Part shown: piece by piece, positions 49,901 through 61,485 of the stretch | Layout: each line of letters starts with the position of its first letter | Numbering within the stretch: the first letter of the stretch is position 1 | Virus record (IMG/VR): IMGVR_UViG_3300050821_008386 | Coordinates: 1-64,000 of that record | DNA: 64,000 nucleotides | Direction: 5' to 3' (one strand) | Source of the DNA: a virus | Program-made: the position numbers and the translations under genes | Notes under the pieces: model-generated | What the model saw: the letters and a program-made list of their open reading frames with translations, nothing else | The model's database searches: none | Told to the model about the DNA's origin: nothing

Positions 49901-51582
49901 GCCATGTTTTCCAGACCGCCCGCAATACTCCTTTGGGTAGCTTGTACCGAAGAATTAAGGACTGAAGTAATCCCGGCCGCTTCCGCTAACCGTCCCACTA
50001 ACCCCAGTCCGACCATTCCTTCCCCGAGATTAGCGGTAGCCGCAGTATCCTGAATGGCTTTCAGGGGTATCGGAAACCCTTTAGCGGCGTATCCTTCGGG
50101 AGTGTCTACGGTGCGTCCCGCAAACGCGTTAAGCATCTGCTGAGTGCCCTGCCCAACGTATCCCTCGCTTCTGGCCGCGTGCAGCCCCGATTGCATCCGG
50201 TCTGTATACAGTTGCGCGGCCATCTGTTTGGGATCCATATCCATGTAGCTTTTATCGCTACGGATCGGCGCGCCGCGGCTAGCCATGATCGCTTGAAAAC
50301 GCGGGTCGATATAACCGATCTCAGGACCGCCCAAAAGTTTTAAAACGGCGTTTGGCGCGGTGGAACTTAATCCGATTAAATGGCTGATCGAGTTTTCCGC
50401 CCATTCAGTGAATTGCGCGGTTCCTTCTTCAGTACCGGCAACCAGAGCGCGTTCGGCGCGTTCCCGGTTGAGGTCGGTCACGGTCTGATGCTCGAGGTTG
50501 ACTGGAGAAGTTTTGTCGTTGTCGTACTTGGGCTGGACAGGTGCCGTTCCACCCGCTTCTTTCGGGGCGAGCGCGGCGCTGATCCCTTCCGCTTCAGCCT
50601 GGCTCGCGTTCGGCGCTTCAGGAACGCCGGGAACGGCATTAGAAGGTGCCACGATATTCCCGATGTTGGCTGCCGCGCCGAAAAGTTGGCCCGGTATTTC
50701 GACCGGCGAATGAATAAAAGCGTCACGCCACGAACTTAAAACGCCGCCTAACCAGTTAATGGCGTTCTTGGCGTCTTGAACTGTTTTCTGCCAATCAGCC
50801 TGAAACTGTTCAGCGTCCGTCTCGGATTTAAGTCCACCAGACGCATCCATTTGATCCTTCATCTGGGCGTGAAGAATCATTGCTTGCGCGGTCTGGAAAT
50901 CGTCGATCTGATGGTGAGCAAATGCTTGAGCGATCTTGTCAGGATTGCCGTCATAAGGCTTGATCGCGTCATCAAGGCGTTGTTGTTCCTGCGCTTGCTG
51001 GAATTCTGGGCCTTGATTGAGATCTTTCCCGTACGGACTGCTTTCAGGTTGGGTCGCTAATTCAGGAGGCGGGAACCCTTTCTGCTGGGTCGGTTGCGCT
51101 GCGGCGATTTCAGGAGGCGGAAACCCACCTTTAGGCGGTGGCGGAAGCGGGTCCGGCGGTGGATCTGGCGGGGTAATGGTCTGAGGCGCGCCCGCTAACG
51201 AATTCTGGATGACCGCCTTATTCTCGTCATCCGTCAACGCCATCGGGTTATTAGCCTGCGCGTTAAGACTCTGTTGAGTGGGATTAAGATGATCCTCGGG
51301 ATTATCCGGCGCGAGCGGTGTCGGAGTGGGGGCGAGGAGCGAACTTACCCCATCTTCAGGGGACATCGGCGGTTGAGTCGGCGTAACCGTGGTGGGCGAC
51401 GGTTGCGGTTGCGGAGGAGGAATCGGGGGCGCGCCTGCCGCCTTGAGTTCAGGCGGATGGAACGGGATGATGTTGGAGGCCGAAGTCGCCGCTTGTCCTG
51501 CCGCTTTGAGTTCGGGCGGTTGAACCGAAGGAGTAGCCTCTGCGTCGGGTAGTGATGCGCTTGGCGCGCTGGCAGGAGGCAT
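40915..51582 (-). CDS. Giant 3555-aa polyvalent internal virion/ejection protein
   Basis: HHELAH zincin motif; 3D-like domain; ART-like YHGT..GRGIYMS..GHDGII; C-terminal GPKIGQFY..VMDMW; last gene of structural operon. Confidence 0.82.
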   Translation of the reverse strand: MPPASAPSASLPDAEATPSVQPPELKAAGQAATSASNIIPFHPPELKAAGAPPIPPPQPQPSPTTVTPTQPPMSPEDGVSSLLAPTPTPLAPDNPEDHLNPTQQSLNAQANNPMALTDDENKAVIQNSLAGAPQTITPPDPPPDPLPPPPKGGFPPPEIAAAQPTQQKGFPPPELATQPESSPYGKDLNQGPEFQQAQEQQRLDDAIKPYDGNPDKIAQAFAHHQIDDFQTAQAMILHAQMKDQMDASGGLKSETDAEQFQADWQKTVQDAKNAINWLGGVLSSWRDAFIHSPVEIPGQLFGAAANIGNIVAPSNAVPGVPEAPNASQAEAEGISAALAPKEAGGTAPVQPKYDNDKTSPVNLEHQTVTDLNRERAERALVAGTEEGTAQFTEWAENSISHLIGLSSTAPNAVLKLLGGPEIGYIDPRFQAIMASRGAPIRSDKSYMDMDPKQMAAQLYTDRMQSGLHAARSEGYVGQGTQQMLNAFAGRTVDTPEGYAAKGFPIPLKAIQDTAATANLGEGMVGLGLVGRLAEAAGITSVLNSSVQATQRSIAGGLENMAQNMHDFQMPPVATKIAKGLVGTATKAIAGHYIGQTLGIPGPLAAVAAGMFKMPLVDYGVDLIAGGAGNISKATSFLASHAADAMRLAADNSENLLATRSAAKQILVTGMQRAGEGMMGMTPALLGAKTPQDIGSLLGMGTSLGLLSHAVPDAAAIAQNRLADSAFITDTNWGQSRKPADPPTPYGTNKALDEAHEQALNSLDPATGKPMFSNAQKHLINQTRTQANGMSEIYVLNPKPYAAEMERMQNLGWMNDPVMNSRGVAIDPNPGQNQARVLVRADAFDDAFHHELAHPIISRMELGNPQDLSTFFQAFSRTNDPNDFTSDYTSRATLGQQSATYDQLPSQTEINNGTGQFVPGLRGMTKEDMQREMATEALSGLLKGGSIRDLTRDPTMFHQTQQAFWRVLDDMGFNPTTTRSNTVLGLRQSIQAAMVLEPLVRDTLRRNLGQGAGAPPVLDRPNPNARPNQGPDLFNQPNRTKGASTSTGGGGGGPAPQPTSGTPAPENATQAPQPPPKAQRPGPNVNPADVIKGLRGVGWSAADAKKAAQTTAGETWEEVVKNAVDALRDKKTAERQAGKPAKETPADIAKQALMSEKGFTPEEAEKHVQNDATNAVEAIRNAVNAKNAELPPDVSLSSGKTIKPEKGPIEPRSAGLNKAGDLYDFNDGKGNWYRGLTYPEVNELVGKIPKEGKVTSGPTPTPEQPKETPKQESEPPKKSETTPPPAETETPKGETKAAEPETTSPKTGTPEEPKSSGGIPIPPTGTPQGPVTPTPVPQGPVPPTPQPHAGHLPVPPGTNVPQPPTTGSIAGAPETTEQQQQQKTETPTGETTPEPKEPQETPETTTGTARVQKHLRQQGVKPGTAQRQVHRAMKGEAPVPMAPHGHANIGAFGYPGDYSWDHNSLRGVGAGAHVQKPGSMIPGYSAGLTLEGARARGLHPINGAPSGEEFIGEDGKTYRWDDTAPSDFDMDGKHHHVAANYIDVYDPNHAPDPGVSAAQIESNARYMAQFGIGSNGQRGPLVPGQQPVGPVDFGEQVVEHATGTEPPKGTQGPATAKGATEGAEPAAKSSEPVTAQSIQEAEDRAHEQVVQGERQSDEAYTAAIQKQVLQTVGEQHAASLAPDDQRVKYDPASGLLTGKYFDPIDPFHQWLLNGTNQKSQFVIKAIQNAIPEGQDLWIDYNSAPQKAKGLATAAQRQEAQIESGAHARAEGTAPGQQAGKNIVPSYVGVSLGKEGAPNSLYYGGISPDKVASNAQQIAHRLGPESPYKSGPAGDPVDEEDMRGYLHNISNGWKGDGSAKLTPTEGANLPVESPGFEPYTFGNDPVKAKSKADFWNLAVQGKGAGLSGKDMMDPGTPSGQARALALGNEGYVSGETKNPKEVSKAIAQGRSQQIDEAEAKRDAELEGQAHKFEVLQAIQKHGGLPTAKRNNQLATSAGGMSYPKGEIADLHEAWKALDKDSKAYLKKNYGITSEKLFSASAEHPDKLNAKVSQTSEVPYEDPGELINAAGDALSELGKHQIPEIKSSGIREGLTNPLHAKIEAETPGWTKETLHSGYERLLADNTIDILPSGEDASEQIHPGHEAIARALKEGGYPPSGIVKAGFMPGETEAERAGKPSEERGSGMLAPASGSDTLTLGDRLKKNEHLRANLEKQQAKLDTTNPEEDKKWDELATRIHGLEEEHSNLRNGGGVAFMPAESAGEEPNEVRKAREAWLTKGTTENAKHRDFDFGNEPFRLTGEEQKAVEPKKATPSDQESGQMSMFMPGDVVEGPGGERERIQSPAVRINGVIHSGSWHGEAIDNARDSGEPISQYNEHLGGHEIETGYLTTTGNFVTQGSPGWELAKRNNQIKASSLAREKGNAPQLASEDLKNLPKTRGPLPERPSAQFMPGDDRDTVRLFRASRDSEARTGAHFSESREHAKAYTKNPGFGGPNLYEATVPVDKDRVLDVSGDPSWRRLSSVYADIHNQGIEDPEDRISPDAKSDEWMGRGFDQIHHALDSDSDLRDALAKKYNWVKFTDSYPEGAKTWRYLGEKPITTKISRYISPKTRGPLLGSGPEASQSEPRSAAFMPGDHIGDAPEKIKDPAVRTPDGKIYTGNIHKFAEGKALKDNPALGTRDLVAGYTTDGGRFLSLRDAMNEIKVRPRGNKQELSSEDIRYNRELKSPAFMPSERIVDHPENPQVQSHDFKEWFKGSKVTDQDGKPLRLYHGTTQDYDTHDPRLGNTSADWGRGIYMSNNPEDASANYTGEGREYEGREHGGHASIQPLYASLKQPVEIGGLNPTRWNTSDLNDYRQAVRDVYDKHGLGGEQDMLDQTLRHLKPGDHTYAGNIIDKMRNSRAMHQLLEDDGFQHSSGAVAAEVLRAMGHDGIIDHEPFEKWGGDDYQEGMPGLTHDTTHVIAFDPKSVKSATGNRGTFSPGSGNVNFMPADRVTKGANGNNVRETSDYDGTTSGDEMVRYRTPPATTAQPSEREETPSESAPSPPLQNTEPPDEKVAVNGHGPLDSNTDHSVAFLPPEKMPAEMRSKLIDTDDRVAKLAYAQQKAKEWLENNKPPRMSAEYSKGQLPKGKLNWKVENLGDWIESKNGKLDLNDPKVRNQMARAATYDVMKRLSGDASGLDWYDKIPDEAVKYVAQHLDPSIDANRENRMMYRLGLAVTSNGQNVYNNAETAYHAYQYWKDHGELPTDPKDFVGGGVKIKAMISSFQKLNALKDKLGAQGLEDLLDKKMTVRQMRDYGLDISGEAPDHPTYAALSLGPKIGQFYSALGKHFDALVMDMWFKRTMNRMTGGMFRFSPTAFKSQVGELGRSIRSGEVEMPDEQKAKILDEIDAIQNHEDMTRAQAIREMPELDSWAKNTDKEAARPATDPDGTKRSYPVEKRTPTTYLAKNIKENLHFTDDAPTQAERPLYREIMEKVLKNLKSAGIDMHMADAQAVLWFVEQQLYKEAGAAKKGSHTSDYLDGAYALVKQQLEHPGKPAPAAPKVPKLPKKKRLPALAGV

Positions 51583-51674: not shown

Positions 51675-51932
51675 ATGAATCCTGAAGAGGAAAAGCGCCA
51701 TGCTGAACGGGCGAAGTGCCGTCATCACGACGTGATTCTGACTCCTCTGGAAAAAGCAGTCTGGGGATGGTTCGGTGCCGCGCTTGTCACCGCAGTAGCG
51801 CTCGGAATCGGGTTGATGCTGGTTCTTTTGATCGTTCCGGCCACCATGGGCGCGTTGTCAGGATTAGGTGTTCACGCCCTATTAGTCCTGATTGTCGTGC
51901 TCCTGCTGGTTTCCGCGCTCGGTCGCCGCTAA
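51675..51932 (+). CDS. Small two-helix membrane protein, antisense to the virion operon
   Basis: Hydrophobic helices; fills the gap between structural genes; start uncertain. Confidence 0.65.
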   Translation: MNPEEEKRHAERAKCRHHDVILTPLEKAVWGWFGAALVTAVALGIGLMLVLLIVPATMGALSGLGVHALLVLIVVLLLVSALGRR

Positions 51933-54250
51933 TAACCGGGCAGTTTCGTCACCGCTGGATAACCTTCGGACTGATATTTCGCCCCGACAGGCACCCGGTC
52001 GTAATCGGCTCGACTCTTGACCGGGAAAGGGAATTGATTGCCACCGGGCGCGTTGTCGCCGTCCGTGATCATGTTGGCTTTATACTGCGCGGTTGCCGGA
52101 ATCCTTTGGCGGTTAGCGATCATGTGATCCAACTGGACCTGCATGTTCTGACCTAGATATTTTAGGTTATTCTGAACCAGTTGCGGAAGGCGCGGACTAT
52201 CAAAACTGCCAATCAAGGATTCAACGCCTTGGGTTCCTTGCGCGTCAGCGGGAAGTCGTCCGGCAATAGCGGCGCCTGTTTGCGCTCGCATCGCCATATC
52301 GAGTTTCTGGTAAGCCTGATGCATTTCATCTACGCGCGGATCGCCGTCGCCAAGGTCAACGGCACCGCCTGTTGCTGCTTTGACGGCAGGTCCGAGATGG
52401 CTCATCAAGTTGGATTTACCCGCACTGTAGAGGTTGCGGATGCTTTCAGCAGCCGGATCGCCGGCGGTCTTATATTTGTCGATCAACCCTAAAAGATTGT
52501 TACTGGCGTCGATCACGTTTTCTTTAGCGGCCAAAGAATCGGTTTGCGCTTGGTTCACGGGCCAATCTTCAAGCGCTTGCGCTTGCTTGTAAGCGGCAAT
52601 CTTCGCTGGGCGACTCAAGGACTGCCAGTTGCCAGATACGGTCCCGGCTTTCATGCTGGCGTCCATCATCTCCTGATCTTCGTGTTGACCAATCGCGTTA
52701 TCGATCTCGCTCTCTTTGCCGTTCGCGTACACCCGCGTCTCGTGGTACGGCGTCTGGTTTCTGACTTGATAGAAATTCCCTTGTCCGTCGAGGTAGCCCG
52801 GAACCGCTTTACCAGCAACCCTGGCGACAATCTGGGTGCTCGGACGGAGGGGGTTTCCTTGCGCATCTGTTCCGTCTGGAGACGTCTCGGCGGGGCCAAC
52901 GACGTTGTATTGGTTGGCCGCTAGAGCCTTCCCAATCAGGTCAGGTGGAACGCCGCCGAACGCTTGAGCGACAGCTTGAGACGACACTGGCCTCACGCCC
53001 GGATAGTTCGGGTCGGTATTATTAGATGGACGCTCAACAGGAAATCCGCCCGGACCAAGTTGCTGTCCAGAAGATTGCGCTTGTTGGCCGGGATTAGGAT
53101 TGACCATCTGCGCTCTTGGGACCGGTGGCGTGTACGGACTGGGTTGACCAGGAGTTCGCGGAGGCGCTTGCGGAGCCGCTTTAGTCCCGGCCCATGGCGC
53201 GCCTCCAGCACTCAGCACGTCCTGAGTCGACAGTTGGCCTTGCGCTAATCTGGTTGCCAGATCCTGATTCTGTTGATCGTCAGTCTGATCAATCTCACCT
53301 GCGGGCGAAGACGCCAAGGGTGCCGCTGCCGCAAGTCCTGCGGTTGCTACAGCGTTTTTGGGTGATTCCGCTGGTCCTTCTGGGGCGGATGGAGCACTCG
53401 GAACGGGTTTACCCATCGCCGGGTTATTGGTCGCGGCCGCTAAACCGGGGAGATAAGTTGCCGCCCATGTCTTATCGACCGGTTGCATCGGCACCCCATC
53501 CGTATGGTGAATCATGATGCGGTTAGTCGGTTGACCTTGCGCATCAAATTCAGCGTTCCATCCCGTCGCTTTATCCGTGATGTGCTGCTTGTAGGCTTTG
53601 TAAATGTCAGCGCCAGCGGGTAACGATGTCGCCGTAGCGGCGTTCGCGGCATCGGTTATAGTCGGTACTTGCTGGGTCTGATGCGCTGGTTCCTGCTGAT
53701 TTGCGGGCGTAATAGGCCCGACCGGCGCAGTATTGGATTGGGTATTGTTCTGGGGATTATCGGGAGGCGGGGTAGGTGGTGGAGCAGCAAAGCCCTGCCC
53801 TCCTGGATTTAAATCCTGCTGTTTAACGCCACCAAACGGGACAGGATAAGAGGGAACGCCAACGTTTGTCCCTTGGATATTAGTCTGGTACTGGAGACTG
53901 TTATCCTGCGGATTCTGGTTAACGTCATTCTGAATCCCTTTCAGGCGTTCTTGCGCGAGATTCTGTTCCTGCATCTCGGTCTGGATCTTCTGCGCTTCCA
54001 GAGGGAGCTGTTGCGCCTGACGATACGCTCCGGCAATGTTGCCGGGAAGGTTCGCGAGTGTTTGACCTACGGACGCACCCCAGTTAGGCACCCGCAGTTC
54101 AGGAGGCGTCGGAGGACGATCAGCGGATGCCAGTGATCCTAGTAGACTTGCTTCGCTCTGGACCAGTTGCGGTGCCGCGAGGACCGCTGGCGCATTGTAA
54201 GGCTGCTCGTATGTGAAGAACTGGACTAGACCCTTTGGAGTGTGCTTCAT
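51929..54250 (-). CDS. Probable internal virion (ejection) protein
   Basis: Pro/Gln/Ala-rich; position before giant protein; terminal DYDRVPVGAKY motif. Confidence 0.65.
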   Translation of the reverse strand: MKHTPKGLVQFFTYEQPYNAPAVLAAPQLVQSEASLLGSLASADRPPTPPELRVPNWGASVGQTLANLPGNIAGAYRQAQQLPLEAQKIQTEMQEQNLAQERLKGIQNDVNQNPQDNSLQYQTNIQGTNVGVPSYPVPFGGVKQQDLNPGGQGFAAPPPTPPPDNPQNNTQSNTAPVGPITPANQQEPAHQTQQVPTITDAANAATATSLPAGADIYKAYKQHITDKATGWNAEFDAQGQPTNRIMIHHTDGVPMQPVDKTWAATYLPGLAAATNNPAMGKPVPSAPSAPEGPAESPKNAVATAGLAAAAPLASSPAGEIDQTDDQQNQDLATRLAQGQLSTQDVLSAGGAPWAGTKAAPQAPPRTPGQPSPYTPPVPRAQMVNPNPGQQAQSSGQQLGPGGFPVERPSNNTDPNYPGVRPVSSQAVAQAFGGVPPDLIGKALAANQYNVVGPAETSPDGTDAQGNPLRPSTQIVARVAGKAVPGYLDGQGNFYQVRNQTPYHETRVYANGKESEIDNAIGQHEDQEMMDASMKAGTVSGNWQSLSRPAKIAAYKQAQALEDWPVNQAQTDSLAAKENVIDASNNLLGLIDKYKTAGDPAAESIRNLYSAGKSNLMSHLGPAVKAATGGAVDLGDGDPRVDEMHQAYQKLDMAMRAQTGAAIAGRLPADAQGTQGVESLIGSFDSPRLPQLVQNNLKYLGQNMQVQLDHMIANRQRIPATAQYKANMITDGDNAPGGNQFPFPVKSRADYDRVPVGAKYQSEGYPAVTKLPGY

Positions 54251-55410
54251 GATACGGTCGGAGGCTTAAACTGGCTTAAAGGTACGCCGTTCGGCATTGA
54301 CGGGACGCCGGGAACGCCCGGAGTGAACATTTTGCCGATACTGGAAATTAAAGCGCCCACCGAACTTCCGATTCCGGCAGCTTGCTGTTGTCCGGTAAGA
54401 CCGTTGCCGCTGACCGATCCTACGGTAGGGGTACCGTCTGCTCCTGCGGTATACCCGCTGGCGTCGAGTCCGCCATTGGCGTAATTGGCTCCGCCCGCAC
54501 CCAGAGCAGGCGCGTTCACTGCTCCGCTCACAGGCGCGGCATCCACGCTTCCGAGATCCTGGGTGGTTCCACCCGGCGTCTGGTACTGCGCGGCTTGCGC
54601 CATTGATATTTGCGGAGTCTGGTTGGATTGATACTTCCGCATGATCGGGGCAATGGAATTGAGCAACGATTGACTCGAAGATCCAGCTTGTGACGGAACG
54701 CCCATCTGGCCGATTGATGCTGTCAGGCTGGGATTAGAGAGAGCTTGCGCTGCGTTAGCGCCGATCATGTCAGTGACCGCTTGCGGATTATTGGCCGGGA
54801 CCGTGGTTGGCGTCGACGGAAGCGCCGTTGGCGTCATGGGTATGACAGGAACATTGGCTTGAGTCGCCTGCGGATTGTACGTCGCGGTGGGGGGCGTTGG
54901 CGGGGGCGATTGAGTTGGGCTAGGCGTCTTAGGTGTCAGAGTCGAGTTAGCGTTAGACGCCGTTGATTGATAGTTCTGGAGAAGTTGTTCGGCCTGCGTG
55001 ACCAGCGGGCTCTCGAATGACGCGCCGTTCAGGATTCCGTTAGGTTGATTGATCCATGCGCGAATGGTGCCCGGTTCAGGAGATCCACCACTGCCATACT
55101 GGTTATTCACCGATTCATCGTACGAACCGCCTTGCGAGGGAGCGCTTCCGCCTGTCCATCCAAGAGTCGAAGGGTTGCCTTGCGCATCGTAGACGGTTCT
55201 TCCCTGATTTTGACTGAACCAGTTCTGGAGAGATTCATCGCTCTCGTCGGCGGACGGGATCGTGTTGGTGACGTTGTTCGCCGGCCCGTTATATTTCCCG
55301 CCATTCGCCGCTGGAGAATTTCCCGGTGACTGGTTCTGGGTTTTCATGGCGTTGATCAATAAGGACAGCATCTGTGCCAAAGACGCTGGATCTGTTGTGG
55401 TAGCCGCCAT
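54247..55410 (-). CDS. Probable internal virion protein, low complexity
   Basis: Position in operon; ATGA overlap. Confidence 0.6.
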   Translation of the reverse strand: MAATTTDPASLAQMLSLLINAMKTQNQSPGNSPAANGGKYNGPANNVTNTIPSADESDESLQNWFSQNQGRTVYDAQGNPSTLGWTGGSAPSQGGSYDESVNNQYGSGGSPEPGTIRAWINQPNGILNGASFESPLVTQAEQLLQNYQSTASNANSTLTPKTPSPTQSPPPTPPTATYNPQATQANVPVIPMTPTALPSTPTTVPANNPQAVTDMIGANAAQALSNPSLTASIGQMGVPSQAGSSSQSLLNSIAPIMRKYQSNQTPQISMAQAAQYQTPGGTTQDLGSVDAAPVSGAVNAPALGAGGANYANGGLDASGYTAGADGTPTVGSVSGNGLTGQQQAAGIGSSVGALISSIGKMFTPGVPGVPSMPNGVPLSQFKPPTVS

Positions 55411-55420
55411 GACCTATAAT

Positions 55421-56713
55421 TTAGCCTTCCGGTCCCTTTCTTGCGAGAGCCAATCTGGAGAGACAAACCCTCAGTTCAGCCACACTGCTGATCCCTGTTT
55501 CCCGCAAATAATTATCGAGCGTTCCGGCGATCTCTAATCCGGTCGCTTCCAGATGTTCCTGAAACATCCCTTGCAGGTTTTCGGTGAAATCGATTCCAAC
55601 CGTATCGGTGTTTTCCCGGTCGACAATGATCCGTTCAGCGTCCGCGCAATCGTCCAACCACATCTGGAGTTGGTTATGGGTCCGCATGTAATCCAGGATC
55701 GTCTGGGTCTGCCGTCGGAACATGCAGGTCGTGATATAAGTCTCGTGCAGTTTCCTGATCCGAGCGTTCTGGATGGTCATCACCTCGAAATTGGCCGGCG
55801 TCATCGCGTTAGCGTTGAGCCAGTCCAGATACTGATCCCAAACCACCAACCGATTGCGCGCACAGAACGTTGACCATTCGTACTCGATATCTTCTTTGGT
55901 CACCGCAACATGGAGGATGTCCGCCAGAATCACCGCTAACGCCCGGTTTTTCGAATCCCAACAGATCTGGTTATATTGCGGGCAATTGAGGGTGATATAG
56001 GAATCGACGTGCTGCATCGTGATCGTCGCTCCCGCATGCTCCACTCTCCGTTCCCTCTCTAACATGGCGTTAAAAAGCATCGTCATGTAGGTCAGGTCAG
56101 GCCGTTTATCCGTGCAATAATCCAGGGTCAGGAAATTCGATAAAAGATGAAGAGCGTCTTCCCGTTTCTGATCAAAAACGTAACGCGAATCGGGACTGGT
56201 CAGGCGTTCGGTATAATGTTTGCCCTGTTCAGTCTTAAAGATTTCCCCGGCTTCTTCCGGCGTAATTTCCTCACTTTCAATCAACCGAAGGAGGCCAGCG
56301 CGGAGATTGACCAGAGGGCAAGTGTCGCAAACGTAGTTTCCTGAAGGCGTCTGATGATAAATCACCGCTACTTCGTCATCTGCGTCGATTACCCCTTCGT
56401 GATACCACTCGAAGATCTTCCCAGAACCGATCATCACACCCACATCTGCTAATTCAGATGCCCGCAGGGCTCCCATGGACGATGAACCGTAAACCTTGAT
56501 CCCTTTTAGTGCCGCCCAGCTTAATTCCTTATGCCAGACGGGCAATTTAGAATCGAAAACACCATCAATCAGCAGGATATGGGTCGGGTTATACTTCGGG
56601 ACGTCCGAAATGATGTCAGCATGACTGGCTGGAGGGAGGAAAACAGCGTCGGGAACGATCTCTTTAGCGAATCCAACGTCTAATGAGGGCCCGAGATAAA
56701 CCAAAACTTTCAC
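55421..56713 (-). CDS. tfuA: TfuA-like protein with C-terminal extension
   Basis: VYLGPSL, LIDGVF, VWHKEL, GSSSMGALRASEL, GSGKIFEWY..G.I..DDEVAV. Confidence 0.95.
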   Translation of the reverse strand: MKVLVYLGPSLDVGFAKEIVPDAVFLPPASHADIISDVPKYNPTHILLIDGVFDSKLPVWHKELSWAALKGIKVYGSSSMGALRASELADVGVMIGSGKIFEWYHEGVIDADDEVAVIYHQTPSGNYVCDTCPLVNLRAGLLRLIESEEITPEEAGEIFKTEQGKHYTERLTSPDSRYVFDQKREDALHLLSNFLTLDYCTDKRPDLTYMTMLFNAMLERERRVEHAGATITMQHVDSYITLNCPQYNQICWDSKNRALAVILADILHVAVTKEDIEYEWSTFCARNRLVVWDQYLDWLNANAMTPANFEVMTIQNARIRKLHETYITTCMFRRQTQTILDYMRTHNQLQMWLDDCADAERIIVDRENTDTVGIDFTENLQGMFQEHLEATGLEIAGTLDNYLRETGISSVAELRVCLSRLALARKGPEG

Positions 56714-57930
56714 GCGTGCTCCTTAATTGACGCGAGTTTGTTGTGGACGTGAAGTTTGCATCGTTCATCCGGTTGCCAGAATTCCCAAATAGGACTGCAA
56801 AGTGATGGGGAGATCGCTCGAACAATGGTGAACGCCGGTTCTTTGGATTCGTAGAGGATTTTCGAGTAACATTCCGAAACCCCTCGTTGCCGGATTCGGT
56901 TAGAAAGAATTTCCCATTCTTCAGTGATTGAATCGAACTCCGGACGCGGGAATTCAGACGCCAAACGTGATAACGGCACCGCTTGATACATCTCAAGGAG
57001 TTGCCGGGAATCGATGTTCTTAGTCAGCATGAACCGGCGCCGGAACAGGTCGTCACGCGCTGAACCGATGTAAGCGACACGCGCCTGGCACGCTTCAGTG
57101 ATCGCCCTGCGCATCGCGGTCGAAGAATTAAGCGAACATCCGTACCCGGAAAAGATGCCGGGAGAGCGCGAACTCGGATCGATCACGGTGCATCCGAACA
57201 CCGGGACCTGCATATCGTTGGAAAGATCGAAGAGAAACGGGTAAACCCCTGCCCGCGCTAGTGCTTCCAGACAAAACTCGATTTCTTCGGTCAACGGACA
57301 ATCGAAACTGACTCGGTCAGGCCAGATATCGGTTTGTTCACGCAAATATTCGCTGGTAGCCCATCCATCACGTTCCACCAGTTCGTAGACCGCTTGCAGA
57401 AGAGCGTCTTCATAATTGATTCCGGCCGCCAGACCGTTGGACGAACTCTGGAAATAATGAAAAGGCGGTATGACCCGGTGCGTCAGCCAGATCATGTCGC
57501 TCGGAACGAGGATCTCGCCTTCCCTGAAAACGTCTGTAACTATCTCCCATGGAATTGGAGTCGAAGAATAAACTGGTGCTCCGCGTGCCAGAGGGAATAA
57601 ATCTGTCCCTAGAACGGATGGAAAGACAGAGATCGCTCGCGCCGGTTCGAGGTAAAACCAAGGGACATTGGCGTGCGGCTTCTCGCCGGCCCAGAGCTCG
57701 ACGCCTTCCAGGATCGCACCCGCTTTCGCGGCGATCTTGGAAAGACCTTTTCCTGCGCTTACCGTTATCACTTCGCCGCCCGGACGCGATACGGTGTAAA
57801 CCGGTAGTCCGATGGTATCAAGGCCCGTGATATCCGAAGCGCGCGTCAGTCCGTACTCCATCAATCGCGAATAGGGTAACGCGCATATCTCGCGTGCTAG
57901 CTCCTCGCGGACGTGTTCCCGGTCGATCAT
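56710..57930 (-). CDS. ycaO: YcaO-family enzyme, TfuA-associated thioamide-forming type
   Basis: TR..DITGLDTIGLPV, GKG..A..GAILE..E, SSNGLAAG..ELVERD, GYGC..RAITEACQAR; start set at ATGA overlap 57927-57930. Confidence 0.95.
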   Translation of the reverse strand: MIDREHVREELAREICALPYSRLMEYGLTRASDITGLDTIGLPVYTVSRPGGEVITVSAGKGLSKIAAKAGAILEGVELWAGEKPHANVPWFYLEPARAISVFPSVLGTDLFPLARGAPVYSSTPIPWEIVTDVFREGEILVPSDMIWLTHRVIPPFHYFQSSSNGLAAGINYEDALLQAVYELVERDGWATSEYLREQTDIWPDRVSFDCPLTEEIEFCLEALARAGVYPFLFDLSNDMQVPVFGCTVIDPSSRSPGIFSGYGCSLNSSTAMRRAITEACQARVAYIGSARDDLFRRRFMLTKNIDSRQLLEMYQAVPLSRLASEFPRPEFDSITEEWEILSNRIRQRGVSECYSKILYESKEPAFTIVRAISPSLCSPIWEFWQPDERCKLHVHNKLASIKEHA

Positions 57931-59570
57931 GCCGCCAGTGGCAACGACGGAAGGTTTGCGCATCGGACGCCGTACCGGAACCGGATAACGTTGCGATTGC
58001 GTTCCAGAACTTCGTCCATGAACTCTCGGATATTGGCGATCACTTCAGGATCCACGTCTTCCCGGTTAGCGAACGTCTCGCTGTATCTGAGGTAAAGGCC
58101 TTTGAGCCAACCGGGCGCGTTGAAATAAAGCCAGAGACGGAACAAACGCCATTCAGGATTGTTCGCGCCATAGACTTTTCTTGCGACGTGACACGACATG
58201 GCGAAAGCCACTCCGACTGCTACCGCGCTTGCTGCGCCTGCGCCGCCTGAGATCATGTTGCCGCTCGATTGAGCTTGCGCACTGGCGTTTTGCGCGGCGA
58301 TCTGGGTGTTGTACTGCGCGCCCTGAACTTTGGTCGAGTACAGGTACTGCATCATGTTGTTTAGCCCTGCAGTGTTCGATAAACTGATGTTGGCAGCGTC
58401 CGACCCTTGTAACCCGAACGAGCGCGGTTGAAACATCGAAGAAGCCAGACCGAAACTTGCGTTGGCGTTCTGTGCAGCGCTATTGATGATCCCCTGACCG
58501 CCTTGCATAGCGTTTGACCCGGCACTTTCCAGTCCGGTCCCGGCGCCGATCATGCTTGTTCCGGCGTTAGTAACCCCTGTTCCCGCCCCAATCATGCCGC
58601 TTCCGGCATTGATGACACCGGTCCCTGCGCCGATTACGCCGCTGCCCGCGCCGATCATCCCGGTACCGGCATTAGCAACATTGGTTCCCGCTCCGGCAAG
58701 AGTCGCCGCTGCCCCTGCTTGGCCGGTAGTAAGTCCCATCCCGGTCTGTTGCAGCGCTTGCCCCTGCTGGCGCTGCGTATTGACCCAGTTTTCCGCGCCG
58801 ACACCGAGATTTCTTCCCACAGCGGCCTGCCCAGCTTCCCCACCTAATCCTGCGGCACCTCCAAGCGCAGATGCCGCACTGCTTAGTCCGCTTCGCATCA
58901 GTTCTTGTTGGACTACCGGATCAATCGCCTGATTGCCCGAGATGAGGTTCTGGCCCAGCGTGATGTCAGGTTGACCTACTCCTTGCGCTCCGGCAGCAAG
59001 AGTCGCCGCGGGCGCGAGAAATTGGCCTGATTGCCCCGCAAGATTCTGGCCTGCGCCGATGATGTTCTGTCCTGTACCGATGATGCCCTGCCCCCAGCCT
59101 GCGATGTTCTGGCCTTGGCCGATGATGCCTTGACCTGTTCCTGCGAGATTTTGACCTTGCCCAACGATATTGGAACCCGAAGTCAGCATTCCTTGGCCTG
59201 CGTTACTTAAACTGTTTCCGGCAGCGATCGATTGTGGCGTCTGGGTACCCAGCAAGTTGGTCAAGTACCCCTGATACTGCTGCTGTGCCTGAATCATTTG
59301 CGGATAACGCGCCGCGAAATCGGCGTCGCTCATCGCATAGTTCAGTTGATTGGCCATGATCGCCTGGCCTTCAGGAGTGTTAACGCCAGCAGCGCCAGCA
59401 GCCCCTAATCCCGAAGCATTCAGAACGCCGCTCATACTGCTGGAACCAGGAGATGGGGTCTGGTTTTGCAGTGCGCTAATGTATTGGTCTGCGCCGATAC
59501 CCGCGCTCGGAGTGAACGAAGGAGCGCCCGCCGGGGCGCTATAGCTTGGGATCTGAGGTGCACTGCCCAT
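57927..59570 (-). CDS. Gly-repeat probable ejection/pilot protein with C-terminal C.VAR.VYG..W..FR domain
   Basis: 7-residue Gly repeats; position after tail genes. Confidence 0.7.
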   Translation of the reverse strand: MGSAPQIPSYSAPAGAPSFTPSAGIGADQYISALQNQTPSPGSSSMSGVLNASGLGAAGAAGVNTPEGQAIMANQLNYAMSDADFAARYPQMIQAQQQYQGYLTNLLGTQTPQSIAAGNSLSNAGQGMLTSGSNIVGQGQNLAGTGQGIIGQGQNIAGWGQGIIGTGQNIIGAGQNLAGQSGQFLAPAATLAAGAQGVGQPDITLGQNLISGNQAIDPVVQQELMRSGLSSAASALGGAAGLGGEAGQAAVGRNLGVGAENWVNTQRQQGQALQQTGMGLTTGQAGAAATLAGAGTNVANAGTGMIGAGSGVIGAGTGVINAGSGMIGAGTGVTNAGTSMIGAGTGLESAGSNAMQGGQGIINSAAQNANASFGLASSMFQPRSFGLQGSDAANISLSNTAGLNNMMQYLYSTKVQGAQYNTQIAAQNASAQAQSSGNMISGGAGAASAVAVGVAFAMSCHVARKVYGANNPEWRLFRLWLYFNAPGWLKGLYLRYSETFANREDVDPEVIANIREFMDEVLERNRNVIRFRYGVRCANLPSLPLAA

Positions 59571-59585
59571 TTAGAAAATATCCTT

Positions 59586-59939
59586 TCAATCTGAGATCAC
59601 GTAAACGTCTTTATCGAAGGGTCTTAACCCGATCTTTGAATACATGCGTGCGTCCACTCCTGGTGGCATAGCAATCAGCGGGTCGCCGTGCATCGCCTTG
59701 ATCCGGTCCAGCCATTTCTTAGTCAGGATATAGAATTGGCGCGGAGAAATTGACGGTTGCACCGCCGGGTAAGCCACCATCTGCTGATGCATGTGGCAGT
59801 AAGTCACCAGTCGCCCGTCCAGATGCCCTACCCAGATCGGGAAAAGTCTGCTCACCTCGTGCCCGAACGTTGCCGCGAACTCATCGAGATTATGCGCCCT
59901 CAATTGCTTCTCGTTTTCGATCTTGGTGAACGTGATCAT
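59586..59939 (-). CDS. Small tail-operon protein, possibly GNAT-fold
   Basis: Start at ATGA overlap; MYSKIGL resembles GNAT C-terminal motif; slot typical of podovirus acetyltransferase-like genes. Confidence 0.55.
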   Translation of the reverse strand: MITFTKIENEKQLRAHNLDEFAATFGHEVSRLFPIWVGHLDGRLVTYCHMHQQMVAYPAVQPSISPRQFYILTKKWLDRIKAMHGDPLIAMPPGVDARMYSKIGLRPFDKDVYVISD

Positions 59940-61462
59940 AACTCGGCGTTTGCGGTATACTGAAACCGGATGGCGTTGGAAGGAGACGTCCACGAACCGG
60001 CGGTGCTGATCAGGTCGAACCCGCTTTCATTCAGTGTCTGAGTGGTAGTGATGCTCCCTACCGTGACACCTTGAGACTGGGAATAGACCCCCCCTGACCT
60101 TCCGTCAGACCCCAGCACGGTCCATGTTACTAAATTGGGTGTCGTGCGCATCTTGACCGGGAAACGGCACACTCCCCATGCTTGCGTAGCGGCCAGGGCG
60201 ATAAAGGCGAGTTCTCCTAGAGATGAGGCGCCGCTGGTAAAGGTGATTGTTGAACCGGAACTATTCGTTCCAATCAGAGCGGCACTCAACGTGACGGTAG
60301 TCGGAGATACCGCAGACACTGTCACGCCGGCGGAAATATTGGTTCCAAACACTGGCATCCCGACAGCCACTGCCGCGATTCCGGGTGCGGTCGTGGAAGC
60401 GAAACTTAAAACGGTCGCACCCACGAGAACTGTTGTGTTGGTCACCAGGTTGAATGCCACCGGGTAAACGCTCATCGGATGCGATTTAGCCCAGTACCTC
60501 TGGCACCGCCTTAAATCTTCGTCGAATGGGACGAACTTGAAGTAGTTGGAGATAGGGGACGGTTCGTGTTGAACCAGAGTGATATCAAGGGTGTTGCCAA
60601 TCGTCGCGAACAGATTGGTCTGATTCGCCGTTCCGAGCTGGTTCTCGGAATTCCAGATATTCGGCAGATCCTGATAATCTGATCCGTTGGTCGCACTGAC
60701 CGAAATTACGTAGCAAGAATCAGTGTTCACTGTCCCCCAGTTGCCGGTCGAGGTGGGCATCGCCGGGATAGTCGGGAAAGTAAAATACTGAGGGACCGAG
60801 GGCGTGGTGATGACGCATTCCATCACGTACGACCACGTCTGGTCCGCATCTCTGATAGCGACACAATAAGTCCCGGCAAGAGAAGATTGGAGCACGATGG
60901 AAAGCGACGTTTCGTTATCAAAGAGGGGCCGGGAAAAGCCGCGTTCGATTCTCTGGGTAACGACGAAATATTCTCCGGCGGCGATCGTCAATTGAGCGGT
61001 GGTCACCGTCATCCGTAACGCCATCTGGGTATCAGGGTATTGAGAGGTTCCCGGAAAATTGACTACCTGCTGAGTGACTGTCGCCGCCCCGCCTCCTGTC
61101 ATATTACTGGTAACCACCCATCTGTCAGCGGTATAAACGGCCTGAGTGGTCCCGATATTCGGGAACGTGACGTTCCTCTGCCAGATCTGCATGTTGGCAT
61201 TGATGACCGAGTTATAAATCGGACTCGAAGTGATCGGCAGATATTCGGATTGCGCGGTGTTCCACGCCCACCATTGTCCATCGTTAAACCACGGTCCCAC
61301 ATTACTGGGCGGCGTTGATCCGCCGGTTTGCCCTAAAAGGAAATTAGCGGTGATCGACGCCTGGAGATTGGCCACCAGCAATTGGCCGTACTGATTGGCA
61401 TCCAAGGATTGGCCTGTAGGGATGGGTGCCAGAGAGAAGATGATGGGAATCGTGGTAGCCAT
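59936..61462 (-). CDS. Tail fibre/appendage protein
   Basis: INANMQIWQR..YTADRW..EDLRRCQRY..FPVKMRTTP. Confidence 0.8.
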   Translation of the reverse strand: MATTIPIIFSLAPIPTGQSLDANQYGQLLVANLQASITANFLLGQTGGSTPPSNVGPWFNDGQWWAWNTAQSEYLPITSSPIYNSVINANMQIWQRNVTFPNIGTTQAVYTADRWVVTSNMTGGGAATVTQQVVNFPGTSQYPDTQMALRMTVTTAQLTIAAGEYFVVTQRIERGFSRPLFDNETSLSIVLQSSLAGTYCVAIRDADQTWSYVMECVITTPSVPQYFTFPTIPAMPTSTGNWGTVNTDSCYVISVSATNGSDYQDLPNIWNSENQLGTANQTNLFATIGNTLDITLVQHEPSPISNYFKFVPFDEDLRRCQRYWAKSHPMSVYPVAFNLVTNTTVLVGATVLSFASTTAPGIAAVAVGMPVFGTNISAGVTVSAVSPTTVTLSAALIGTNSSGSTITFTSGASSLGELAFIALAATQAWGVCRFPVKMRTTPNLVTWTVLGSDGRSGGVYSQSQGVTVGSITTTQTLNESGFDLISTAGSWTSPSNAIRFQYTANAEL

Positions 61463-61485
61463 ATCAGGTATACATTAGTAGTGAC

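What the first reader, a model, noticed from the sequence alone, without database searches (positions are those of the whole stretch)
54247..59570. Phage-encoded YcaO-TfuA thioamidation pair embedded in the virion ejection-protein operon
Seen: intact ycaO and tfuA, coupled by ATGA (57927-57930) and GTGA (56710-56713) overlaps, between the Gly-repeat 547-aa gene and the 387-aa and 773-aa probable internal virion genes. No separate precursor peptide, protease, transporter or ThiS gene lies nearby. Known: YcaO plus TfuA install backbone thioamides in thioamitides and on a Gly of methyl-coenzyme M reductase, using sulfide or thiocarboxylated ThiS. Inference: the phage thioamidates its own virion or ejected proteins (protease resistance, conformational control, or evasion of protein-sensing defences), or a host protein. 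I do not know of a described phage structural operon with this system.
Basis: partly seen in the sequence, partly recalled or inferred. Interest (0 to 1): 0.95.

Follow-up and report, generated by a model that had tools for sequence, protein, structure and literature searches.

The report
Phage YcaO-TfuA backbone thioamidation pair
An uncultured 131-kb soil phage carries, inside its late virion-gene operon, an intact pair of enzymes that in cells swap a backbone oxygen for sulfur in proteins; its most likely but unproven target is the alanine-rich tail of the phage protein encoded just upstream.

Summary
ycaO (56710-57930) and a long tfuA (55421-56713) are intact and are start/stop-coupled to the 547-aa gene upstream and the 387- and 773-aa genes downstream. 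They lie on the minus strand between tail-fibre genes and a 3555-aa polyvalent protein. The pair is a fixed feature of a phage clade, not a chimera. Among distinct related loci, 32 of 32 with enough downstream sequence have tfuA. Of 30 with enough upstream sequence, 29 have the same upstream gene family. Contigs from other soil studies bridge the junctions.

The Gly heptads are variable insertions. The conserved feature is a run of 14-35 small, Ala-rich residues that either ends the upstream protein or precedes a Cys-led C-terminal domain. Bacterial YcaO + long-TfuA clusters carry Nif11-leader peptides with similar Ala/Gly/Thr/Val cores. The Cys-domain protein family is much wider than YcaO, so the enzyme pair looks like an add-on.

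The target, the chemistry and virion packaging are all inferred. I found no paper on a phage YcaO-TfuA. This scan has already followed up the same kind of finding on other phage genomes. This window is a separate, larger-genome lineage.

The parts
59936..62400 (-). Two tail-fibre-type genes (508 aa at 59936-61462; 304 aa with a tail collar domain at 61486-62400) at the head of the local gene chain
   Evidence: PHROGs phrog_4492 tail fiber E 3.2e-25; Pfam Collar PF07484 E 4.3e-17; PHROGs tail families
59586..59993 (-). 135-aa protein of unknown function, conserved directly upstream of the 547-aa gene family
   Evidence: BLASTP relatives in 18 of 27 IMG/VR loci at the same position; alignment; no Pfam, PHROGs or NCBIfam hit
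57927..59570 (-). 547-aa Gly/Gln/Ala-rich protein (P0001), the candidate substrate. It has a conserved N-terminal and central core, two variable Gly-heptad blocks, an Ala-rich run and a Cys-led C-terminal domain
   Evidence: Translation; family alignment; relatives directly upstream of ycaO in 29 of 30 assessable loci
58194..58256 (-). Codons for residues 439-459 of P0001: a 21-residue run of small residues (Ala/Gly/Ser/Val-rich). Proposed thioamidation site or membrane segment
   Evidence: comparison of YcaO-linked and unlinked tails; resemblance to the cores of bacterial Nif11-leader peptides next to YcaO + long TfuA
57930..58193 (-). Codons for residues 460-547 of P0001: a Cys-led basic C-terminal domain (C-x2-A-R ... 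G ... W-x2-F-R)
   Evidence: Alignment; the motif occurs in at least 120 viral contigs and in gp25 of Puniceispirillum phage HMO-2011
56710..57930 (-). ycaO (406 aa from the ATG at 57930; an upstream ATG at 57963 would give 417 aa)
   Evidence: PF02624 E 1.9e-50; best NCBIfam TIGR03266, 136.8 bits, below its cut-off; best solved relative MJ1094, 6pe3/6peu, E 3.5e-22; 61-member viral clade with support 0.97
55421..56713 (-). Long tfuA (430 aa). The TfuA domain is about residues 1-195 (56129-56713). An extra helical C-terminal domain covers residues 196-430 (55424-56128)
   Evidence: PF07812; AF2 model pLDDT 81.8, N-terminal part matches TfuA 6xp8 at Foldseek E 2.6e-12, TMt 0.78; C-domain model pLDDT 84.4 with weak SurA/PrsA-like matches, Z 5.0-7.2; the domain is found almost only in 440-480-aa TfuA proteins
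54247..55410 (-). 387-aa low-complexity (Pro/Gln/Ser/Thr/Gly-rich) protein, start/stop-coupled to the next gene
   Evidence: no family hit; no BLASTP relative in the 27 loci
51929..54250 (-). 773-aa low-complexity protein with a helical C-terminal part
   Evidence: no family hit
40915..51582 (-). 3555-aa giant protein with an ART-PolyVal ADP-ribosyltransferase domain (residues 2758-2975, about 42658-43311), the type predicted to be packaged and injected
   Evidence: PF18760 E 4.5e-19, 70 bits against a cut-off of 31.2; weak similarity to the giant last gene in 6 related loci; passages of Iyer et al. 2017, PMC5512222

Best explanation
The phage encodes a working YcaO ATP-dependent amide-activating enzyme and a long TfuA partner. 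They are translated together with late, virion-module genes. YcaO most likely phosphorylates backbone amide oxygens in a phage protein, and sulfide replaces the oxygen to give thioamides. TfuA would supply that sulfide by hydrolysing a host thiocarboxylated ThiS-type carrier, because the phage has no carrier of its own. The most likely substrate is the 547-aa protein encoded immediately upstream, at its 21-residue Ala-rich small-residue run (residues 439-459) just before the Cys-led C-terminal domain. The extra helical C-terminal domain of the long TfuA may hold that unfolded hydrophobic segment. Shown: gene integrity, family membership, coupling and conserved synteny. Inferred: the chemistry, the sulfur source, the target, and that the target is a virion or ejected protein.
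For: Enzymes:
- YcaO has a full-length PF02624 match and TfuA a PF07812 match.
- The best NCBIfam matches for both are the McrA-glycine thioamidation models.
- The two ExxE/ExxER motifs (E86/E89, E194/E197-R198-D199) are invariant in 25 of 25 clade members and align to identical residues of MJ1094.
- The TfuA N-terminal part superposes on solved TfuA 6xp8.

Selection:
- The viral YcaO clade has 61 sequences, down to 30% identity, with support 0.97.
- Among 41 distinct loci with at least 35% identity, tfuA follows ycaO in 32 of 32 with at least 1300 nt downstream, and it is the long form in 30 of those 32.

Link to the upstream gene:
- In 27 of 30 loci with at least 900 nt upstream, the adjacent upstream ORF ends in a run of small residues, followed by the stop codon or by the Cys domain.
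- In 2 more (L018, L161) the same gene is present, with an HNH endonuclease ORF inserted between it and ycaO. One locus (L198) lacks it.
- The arrangement also holds in divergent lineages with different surrounding genes (L025, L029, L031).

Parallel in bacteria:
- Bacterial YcaO + long-TfuA loci L077, L081, L084 and L086, and metagenome locus L217, carry Nif11-type leader peptides whose cores follow a GG motif. Four of the five cores are Ala/Gly/Thr/Val-rich (L081's is not).
- Three Azospirillum loci and L088 carry a ThiS/MoaD-like ORF ending in GG.

Specificity:
- The 25 residues before the Cys are Ala 0.37, Gly 0.16, small residues 0.95 in 32 distinct YcaO-linked proteins.
- The same measure is Ala 0.17, Gly 0.24, small residues 0.78 in 52 Cys-domain proteins with no ycaO within at least 1500 nt downstream.

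Sulfur: a passage of Rice et al. 2026 (PMC13063428) states that thioamide-forming YcaOs outside sulfide-rich habitats tend to use a ThiS-like thiocarboxylate and the TfuA hydrolase.

Not a chimera: contigs from coded runs of different studies bridge the 547/ycaO, ycaO/tfuA, 135/547 and 387/773 junctions.
Against: There is no mass-spectrometric, expression or virion data. No listed run is on record as RNA.

Adjacency may only reflect a fixed slot in the operon. The Cys-domain protein family is far wider than YcaO: 52 of 57 assessable loci have no ycaO next to it, and the cultured phage HMO-2011 has the protein without the enzymes.

The small-residue run could simply be a transmembrane helix.

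The Ala enrichment comes from related sequences, so the Mann-Whitney p of 3e-13 (run on the first, run-based set of segments) is not an independent-sample probability.

The phage protein has no Nif11 leader, so recognition would have to differ from the bacterial clusters.

Both enzymes score far below the McrA equivalog cut-offs, so the chemistry is inferred from family membership, not orthology.

The SurA-like matches of the TfuA C-domain have Z under 8, a range the tool calls common for helical models.
Confidence: 0.45

Rival explanations
1. The pair thioamidates another phage protein made from the same operon, such as the low-complexity 387- or 773-aa proteins, the 3555-aa giant protein or a capsid or tail protein. 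The upstream gene is only a positional neighbour.
For: The pair is also start/stop-coupled, or nearly so, to the downstream genes. Medium, large and giant proteins follow tfuA in nearly all related loci. E. coli YcaO recognises the folded tertiary structure of a whole protein, uL16, rather than a short peptide (abstract and passage of PMC13063428).
Against: The 387- and 773-aa proteins have no BLASTP relatives in the 27 related loci at E 1e-5, so no conserved site is visible. The upstream family is the only neighbour kept across the divergent lineages L025, L029 and L031.
Confidence: 0.2
2. The pair modifies a host protein during late infection, or after being packaged and injected. This would be host takeover or counter-defence, analogous to uL16 thioamidation by cellular YcaO.
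For: Cellular YcaOs modify essential host machines: McrA, and uL16 (PMC13063428, abstract). The operon ends in a polyvalent protein with an ART domain, a class predicted to act on host targets after injection (PMC5512222 passages).
Against: The strict adjacency to one phage gene family in 29 of 30 loci is not explained. The enzymes are distant from the uL16-type model (NF040716, 23.3 bits against a cut-off of 700). The host is unknown.
Confidence: 0.12
3. The C-terminal part of the upstream protein is a precursor. After thioamidation it is cleaved to release a small hydrophobic thioamidated peptide, a phage-made RiPP that acts on membranes or on competitors.
For: In L009, L025, L026 and L028, and in the further loci L187 and L191, the protein ends right after the small-residue run, like a RiPP core at a C-terminus. 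Bacterial relatives use true leader-core precursors.
Against: There is no protease, transporter or immunity gene. Most phage versions carry a further 64-96-residue domain after the run. The protein has a conserved 200-residue core unlike any leader.
Confidence: 0.1
4. The YcaO performs other chemistry (azoline or amidine formation at the invariant Cys or elsewhere), or the pair has no present function.
For: The Cys that follows the run is invariant in the 12 aligned C-terminal domains, and YcaO enzymes of other classes cyclodehydrate Cys. Scores are below every equivalog cut-off.
Against: In all characterised cases I know of (recalled), TfuA partners go with thioamide formation. Six loci lack the Cys-led domain but keep both enzymes (L009, L025, L026, L028, L187, L191). 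Conservation at 30% identity with intact motifs argues against decay.
Confidence: 0.05

Closest known systems
Archaeal YcaO-TfuA that forms thioglycine in methyl-coenzyme M reductase McrA (TIGR03266 / NF033432; MJ1094 structures 6pe3/6peu; TfuA structure 6xp8)
   Same: The same two families sit side by side. These are the best NCBIfam models for both proteins, the best solved sequence relative of YcaO and the best fold match of TfuA. The target there is a full-size protein rather than a small peptide.
   Different: Scores are far below the equivalog cut-offs (136.8 against 365; 137.8 against 235.2). There is no McrA. The TfuA carries an extra 235-residue domain. The host is a virus, and the genes lie in a virion-gene operon.
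Uncharacterised bacterial clusters of YcaO + long (about 450-aa) TfuA with Nif11-leader precursor peptides (seen here in Ca. Magnetominusculus, Nostoc and Actinomycetota loci L077, L081, L084, L086)
   Same: The long TfuA architecture is alignable over the whole length at 30-34% identity. ycaO lies directly upstream of tfuA. The gene just upstream of the enzymes encodes a stretch of Ala/Gly/Thr/Val small residues.
   Different: The bacterial substrates are 83-108-aa leader-core peptides with a GG cleavage motif, and some clusters carry a ThiS-like gene. The phage has a 547-aa protein with no Nif11 leader and no carrier gene. I saw no experimental work on these bacterial clusters.
E. coli YcaO thioamidation of ribosomal protein uL16 (Rice et al. 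2026, PMC13063428)
   Same: A YcaO puts a thioamide into a folded cellular protein rather than a RiPP. The substrate was found by structure-prediction screening, the approach suggested here.
   Different: That system has no TfuA (passage). The window's YcaO scores 23.3 bits against a cut-off of 700 for that family.
Thioamitide and other thioamidated RiPP gene clusters (Malit et al. 2021, PMC8120280)
   Same: An adjacent YcaO-TfuA pair is the hallmark.
   Different: The window has no short precursor, tailoring, protease or transporter genes. That survey's main text does not contain the words phage, viral or virus.
gp25 of Puniceispirillum phage HMO-2011 and the wider viral family with the Cys-led C-terminal domain
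   Same: The same C-terminal domain (53.8% identity to a family member). The same operon slot: after the tail-fibre genes and before small, medium and large proteins at the end of the structural module.
   Different: No ycaO or tfuA follows. The residues before the Cys are Gly-richer and less uniformly small. The protein is annotated only as hypothetical.

Membership tests
YcaO superfamily (PF02624) | Full-length YcaO ATP-binding domain | tested here: met
   E 1.9e-50, 172.5 bits against a cut-off of 25.7, profile positions 1-324 of 325
YcaO superfamily (PF02624) | Conserved acidic motifs of the nucleotide/Mg site (their role is recalled from the literature, not taken from a call) | tested here: met
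   E86, E89, E194, E197, R198 and D199 are invariant in 25 of 25 clade members and align with identical residues of MJ1094
TfuA (PF07812) | TfuA domain and fold | tested here: met
   E 1.1e-34, 119.2 bits against a cut-off of 30; Foldseek match to 6xp8 at E 2.6e-12, TMt 0.78, 30% identity
McrA-glycine thioamidation equivalogs (TIGR03266, NF033432) | Score above the curated equivalog cut-off | tested here: not met
   136.8 against 365 bits and 137.8 against 235.2 bits
McrA-glycine thioamidation equivalogs (TIGR03266, NF033432) | The McrA substrate is present in the genome | not tested
   No search for McrA was run. The record is a 131-kb virus.
Thioamidated RiPP cluster (thioamitide type) | Separate short precursor peptide gene beside YcaO-TfuA | tested here: not met
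   Intergenic gaps of at most 15 nt between 54247 and 59993; no Nif11 leader in the record
Thioamidated RiPP cluster (thioamitide type) | Tailoring, protease or export genes in the cluster | tested here: not met
   The neighbours have no Pfam, PHROGs or NCBIfam hits of that kind
Bacterial YcaO + long TfuA + Nif11-precursor clusters | TfuA with the roughly 235-residue helical C-terminal domain | tested here: met
   tblastn of the A2 profile's first sequence covers residues 1 to about 425 in 17 bacterial loci. The C-domain profile finds 693 representatives, mostly 440-480 aa with the domain at about 220-450.
Bacterial YcaO + long TfuA + Nif11-precursor clusters | Nif11-type leader on the substrate | tested here: not met
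   PF07862 finds nothing in the record at E 0.1
Bacterial YcaO + long TfuA + Nif11-precursor clusters | Ala/Gly/Thr/Val-rich small-residue segment encoded just upstream of the enzymes | tested here: met
   P0001 residues 439-459; bacterial cores
uL16-modifying YcaO (NF040716) | Score above the equivalog cut-off; no TfuA partner | tested here: not met
   23.3 against 700 bits; a TfuA partner is present
Phage polyvalent proteins (Iyer et al. 2017) | Giant late-operon protein with an enzymatic effector domain of that set | tested here: met
   ART-PolyVal PF18760, 70 bits against a cut-off of 31.2, in the 3555-aa protein
Phage polyvalent proteins (Iyer et al. 2017) | Two or more disparate recognised domains in one polypeptide | tested here: inconclusive
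   Only one domain passes its cut-off; about 3300 residues are unassigned
Known podovirus internal/ejection proteins (T7 gp14-16, P22 gp7/20/16 types) | Sequence homology of the 547-, 387- or 773-aa proteins to such families | tested here: not met
   0 PHROGs and 0 Pfam families; no PDB sequence match for the A4 profile; only a 0.75 Atlas lead to P22_gp7, flagged as often chance
Known podovirus internal/ejection proteins (T7 gp14-16, P22 gp7/20/16 types) | Position after the tail genes, at the end of the structural module, in ascending size | tested here: met
   the same layout in HMO-2011
   The NCBIfam scan of P0001 lists 0 families at E 0.01. I did not confirm that such a model is in the library.

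The most novel reading that the evidence does not exclude
A whole clade of soil phages post-translationally installs backbone thioamides in the Ala-rich hydrophobic segment of one of its own late proteins, one placed with the internal/ejection genes. That would be the first thioamidated viral protein. The long TfuA would use a chaperone-like domain to present the segment. Sulfur-for-oxygen substitution would tune helix hydrogen bonding, membrane insertion or protease resistance of a protein that acts at the host envelope during DNA delivery.
Probability: 0.35. Interest if true: 0.85.

Novelty: new variant of a known kind. Interest (0 to 1): 0.72.

Why it matters
Backbone thioamides are among the rarest protein modifications. 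As far as I read or recall, only McrA, ribosomal protein uL16 and a few peptide natural products carry them. A virus that keeps the machinery in its virion-gene operon would add a third biological setting and a new class of viral auxiliary function.

It would also give a tractable pairing of substrate and enzyme for a long-TfuA subfamily whose bacterial members are uncharacterised. It would raise the question of what a thioamide does for a protein that probably meets the host envelope.

The test is simple: three genes in E. coli, followed by MS/MS.

Tried and rejected
1. Complex prediction with YcaO + TfuA + P0001 residues 400-547 gave no verdict. The score was 0.00 in two runs and the controls were not folded. 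This is no evidence either way.

2. INPHARED phages: blastn of the 5.3-kb stretch and tblastn of YcaO found nothing in 50,697 records. Records near the window may be left out.

3. The search for related loci with the single YcaO protein found nothing in viral contigs. The alignment-based scans worked.

4. The metagenome scan with the window's own subclade alignment returned 80 loci, none above 40% identity. I therefore could not read the gene context of the closest relatives (P0004-P0025, on contigs up to 189 kb).

6. PHROGs, Pfam and NCBIfam gave nothing for the 135-, 547-, 387-, 773-, 413-, 614- and 634-aa proteins. They also gave nothing for 10 Cys-domain proteins of other phages.

7. PDB sequence searches with the 413-aa protein, A3 and A4 gave only chance-level rows at E 0.18 or more. 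I cannot name the capsid, portal or ejection proteins.

8. Foldseek on the TfuA C-domain gave no match at E 0.001. VIA-align gave Z of at most 7.2, which I treat as a lead only.

9. No RNA holder is listed for the stretch. Parts of the stretch have no laid contigs in X2-X4.

10. Liu et al. 2021 on TfuA is not held. I saw it only as a reference-list entry of PMC13063428, and what I say about TfuA residues or kinetics is recalled. Supplements were not opened.

11. Rejected: Gly heptads as the conserved target. They are absent from the 210-290-aa homologues.

12. Rejected: assembly chimera.

13. The tree is FastTree, midpoint-rooted. With that root the viral clade is sister to all 84 other sequences, so I name no donor lineage.

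Full report
WHAT IS THERE

The window is the first 64 kb of a 131,760-bp IMG/VR virus record. It is classed linear, with CheckV completeness 91%.

A run of minus-strand genes reads in this order:
- two tail-fibre-type genes (59936-61462; 61486-62400 with a tail collar domain);
- a 135-aa gene (59586-59993);
- a 547-aa Gly/Gln/Ala-rich gene (57927-59570);
- ycaO (56710-57930);
- tfuA (55421-56713);
- a 387-aa gene (54247-55410);
- a 773-aa gene (51929-54250);
- after a 346-nt gap, a 3555-aa gene (40915-51582) with an ART-PolyVal ADP-ribosyltransferase domain.

I read the junctions directly:
- ATGA at 57927-57930;
- GTGA at 56710-56713, preceded by AAGGAG;
- a 10-nt spacer between tfuA and the 387-aa gene;
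- ATGA at 54247-54250.

The ATG at 57930, rather than the one at 57963, agrees with the start of the clade consensus.

THE ENZYMES

YcaO matches PF02624 over 324 of 325 profile positions (E 1.9e-50). TfuA matches PF07812 (E 1.1e-34).

In NCBIfam the best models are the two McrA-glycine thioamidation equivalogs. Both scores are far under their cut-offs: 136.8 against 365 bits and 137.8 against 235.2 bits. The uL16/S12-type YcaO model scores 23.3 against 700.

The best solved relative of YcaO by sequence is MJ1094 (6pe3/6peu, E 3.5e-22). In that alignment the acidic motifs that are invariant in the phage clade are identical.

TfuA is 430 aa, about twice the usual length. An AlphaFold2 model (pLDDT 81.8) superposes its first 200 or so residues on the solved M. 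acetivorans TfuA (6xp8; Foldseek E 2.6e-12, TMt 0.78) and leaves an all-helical C-terminal half unmatched.

I folded that half alone with phage and bacterial homologues (pLDDT 84.4, pTM 0.73). Six of the nine best VIA-align rows, and several top Foldseek rows, are SurA, PEB4/Cj1289 and PrsA-type chaperone/foldase proteins, and a seventh is trigger factor. Examples are 3rgc_B (Z 7.2, 81 aligned) and 2pv3_B (Z 6.5, rmsd 2.8, 93 aligned). All have Z under 8 and no Foldseek E reaches 0.001. The Atlas structure search also pointed to Rotamase/SurA_N clusters, at TM 0.42 or less. I treat a peptide-holding role as a lead only.

A profile of this domain finds 693 representative proteins (166 at E 1e-30 or better). 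In the 150 listed, the domain nearly always lies at about 220-450 of a 440-480-aa protein. It is therefore an accessory domain specific to TfuA.

CONSERVATION

A search of 5.8 billion clustered proteins gave about 45 metagenomic YcaOs at 36-77% identity. After these the E-value jumps from about 1e-69 to 1e-42, where the cellular YcaOs begin.

An alignment-based scan of IMG/VR gave 27 loci, on contigs mostly of 19-77 kb. BLASTP of the record's ORFs against these loci shows a shared gene order:
- a 413-aa protein (about 73% identical, probably the capsid protein, not verified);
- about 620-aa and about 610-aa proteins;
- fibre and collar genes;
- the 135-aa family;
- the Gly/Gln-rich family;
- ycaO;
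- long tfuA;
- proteins of 530-830 aa and about 880 aa;
- a giant protein.

Scans with the 614-aa family and with the Gly/Gln-rich family returned the same contigs, or contigs that end before the ycaO position. They gave no counter-example.

Adding 80 metagenome loci and removing duplicate YcaOs left 85 distinct loci out of 107 examined.
- 41 have at least 35% identity to the window's YcaO.
- tfuA follows ycaO in 32 of the 32 with at least 1300 nt downstream. It is the long form in 30 of those 32.
- Of the 30 with at least 900 nt upstream, 27 have an adjacent upstream ORF ending in the small-residue run.
- 2 more (L018, L161) have the same gene with an HNH endonuclease ORF inserted before ycaO.
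- 1 (L198, with a short TfuA) lacks it.

Of the 44 loci below 35% identity, 10 of the 29 assessable ones show the upstream feature and 7 of the 30 assessable ones have a long TfuA. The rest look like cellular contexts.

In a FastTree of 145 YcaOs the viral sequences form one clade of 61 (support 0.97). The window belongs to a subclade of 23 (support 0.998). For none of its other members could I fetch a locus.

IS THE ASSEMBLY REAL?

Logan contigs of four coded soil-metagenome runs from four studies lie on 54000-60000.
- X1 covers 30 of 30 bins. It may be the source sample.
- X2 covers 28 of 30 bins and carries 0-17 other letters per listed piece (6 to 17 in five of the eight listed pieces, none in three), so it is a related strain.
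- X1 and X2 pieces bridge the ycaO/tfuA junction.
- X1 and X3 pieces bridge the 547/ycaO junction.
- X1 and X2 pieces bridge the 135/547 junction.
- An X2 piece bridges the 387/773 junction.
- The listed pieces do not bridge the tfuA/387 spacer. 21 pieces were not shown.

Together with the synteny, this excludes a chimera at ycaO.

THE UPSTREAM PROTEIN

Homologues of 210-290 aa lack them.

The conserved parts are:
- a Pro-rich N-terminus;
- a Y-x-L-S-D-x-D-F-x2-R-Y-P motif;
- an A-R-N-L-G motif;
- a P-R-x-F-G-L-x-G motif;
- a final run of 14-35 small residues.

In the window this run is residues 439-459. The run either ends the protein (L009, L025, L026, L028, and further L187 and L191) or is followed at once by Cys and a basic domain of 64-96 residues.

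That Cys-led domain is not special to these phages. Of the 80 loci fetched:
- 5 have ycaO;
- 52 have at least 1500 nt downstream and no ycaO.

The one cultured example found among 50,697 records is gp25 of Puniceispirillum phage HMO-2011. It lies after the tail-fibre genes and before proteins of 164, 502 and 1128 aa, without ycaO or tfuA.

So the upstream protein is a widespread and unannotated phage component. PHROGs gave 0 hits for 10 family members. In one clade, ycaO-tfuA were added directly behind it.

The 25 residues before the Cys differ between the two groups:
- 32 distinct YcaO-linked proteins: Ala 0.37, Gly 0.16, small residues 0.95. One of these 32 is a spurious pattern match.
- 52 unlinked proteins: Ala 0.17, Gly 0.24, small residues 0.78.

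The sequences are related, so this is a description, not a test of independent samples.

BACTERIAL PARALLEL

Earlier follow-up notes of this scan gave this lead, and I tested it. A scan of one genome per species with the TfuA alignment gave 591 TfuA relatives. The best 17 are long forms covering the whole query at 27-34% identity, in Ca. Magnetominusculus, Nostoc, Symploca, Azospirillum, Streptomyces, Actinomycetota, Parachlamydiales and others.

In L077, L081, L084 and L086, and in metagenome locus L217, ORFs of 83-108 aa lie upstream of ycaO + long tfuA: directly upstream in L077, L084 and L217, about 0.8 kb upstream in L081, and beyond an opposite-strand ORF in L086. They have a Nif11-type leader, a GG motif and a short core. 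The core is Ala/Gly/Thr/Val-rich in four of the five (L081's is not). Three Azospirillum loci and L088 carry a ThiS/MoaD-like ORF ending in GG.

The phage record itself has no ThiS, ThiF or Nif11 match. A passage of Rice et al. 2026 states that thioamide-forming YcaOs outside sulfide-rich habitats tend to use a ThiS-type thiocarboxylate and the TfuA hydrolase. The phage would therefore depend on the host carrier or on free sulfide.

MECHANISM AND CONFIDENCE

I commit to this reading: late in infection the operon yields the 547-aa protein, YcaO and long TfuA together. YcaO activates backbone amides in the Ala-rich run, and host-derived sulfide released by TfuA converts them to thioamides. The TfuA C-domain may present the segment.

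What is shown is family membership, motif conservation, coupling and synteny. The chemistry, the sulfur source, the target and any virion location are inferred.

The label 'ejection-protein operon' rests on three things only:
- gene position;
- the HMO-2011 analogy;
- the ART-PolyVal giant protein, of a class that Iyer et al. 2017 predict to be packaged and injected (passages).

I give 0.45 to the stated target. The rivals are in their own section.

COMPARISON AND NOVELTY

The system works like the archaeal McrA YcaO-TfuA pair and like the uncharacterised bacterial long-TfuA clusters. It fails the equivalog tests for the former and lacks the leader peptide of the latter.

Full-text searches gave no description of a phage-encoded pair:
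- 'YcaO, TfuA, phage': 2 papers, neither about a phage-encoded pair judging by title and abstract.
- 'TfuA, thioamide, virus': I scanned the listing of 25 of 420 papers.
- 'YcaO, bacteriophage': I scanned the listing of 25 of 38 papers.
- The main text of the 2021 global TfuA survey has no occurrence of phage, viral or virus.

This scan has already followed up the same kind of finding on at least eight other phage genomes of about 74 kb, with similar conclusions. What this window adds is a separate YcaO subclade in a 131-kb record that also carries a TrwC relaxase, an upstream protein enlarged by Gly heptads, and an ART-bearing giant protein.

I rate it a new variant of a known kind, with interest 0.72.

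Noticed in passing
window 9354-12125 (+); also record positions beyond the window at about 105-117 kb: The 923-aa ORF has a TrwC relaxase domain (PF08751, E 1.5e-55 at 9396-10121). Other first-reader notes report a VirD4-like ATPase and a T4SS-like operon in the same virus record. A VirB4 search with PF03135 found nothing. A phage record with conjugation genes deserves its own follow-up.
   Followed up: partly
record 66974-88212 (loci L002 and L003): Compared with the relatives of about 74 kb, this record has an extra block of about 21 kb between the 634-aa gene and the 413-aa (probable capsid) gene. The block holds 2347-, 1346-, 771- (weak tail J / fn3 hits) and 686-aa proteins and an endolysin.
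   Followed up: partly
L018 9505-10044 and L161 6643-7194: An ORF of about 180 aa with an HNH-endonuclease-like Cys/His motif is inserted exactly between the Cys-domain gene and ycaO in two related phages. It is probably a homing endonuclease.
   Followed up: no
L237-L316 (IMG/VR) and NC_021864.1 22504-24624: The Cys-led C-terminal domain (C-W-x-A-R ... Y-G ... W-x2-F-R, 64-86 residues to the C-terminus) ends proteins of 87-1949 aa in at least 120 viral contigs and in gp25 of Puniceispirillum phage HMO-2011. It has no PHROGs family, and it looks like an undescribed, widespread phage domain.
   Followed up: partly
L077, L081, L084, L086, L217; L080, L082, L085, L088: Bacterial YcaO + long-TfuA clusters have Nif11-leader peptides with hydrophobic small-residue cores. 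In Azospirillum and a Parachlamydiales MAG they also have ThiS/MoaD-like ORFs ending in GG. This looks like an uncharacterised thioamidated RiPP class.
   Followed up: partly
L009 11190-11447 and L019 11226-11531: Two related phages carry a small ORF (85 and 101 aa) with CxxC...CxxC zinc-ribbon-like spacing between ycaO and tfuA.
   Followed up: no
window 59586-59993 (-): The 135-aa protein has relatives at the same position in 18 of 27 loci, with conserved F-P-[IV], Y-P-A-[LV]-H-P and G-[ND]-P motifs and no family assignment. It might belong functionally with the module.
   Followed up: partly
window 54617 and 54100-55100: The related strain in coded run X2 differs from the window by many substitutions and a 6-nt insertion inside the 387-aa low-complexity gene. 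This fits with fast evolution of that gene.
   Followed up: no
window 40915-51582 (-): Only about 220 of the 3555 residues of the giant protein are assigned (ART-PolyVal). Another first-reader note reports repeated FMP(G/A/S) linkers. The rest is unexplored.
   Followed up: no
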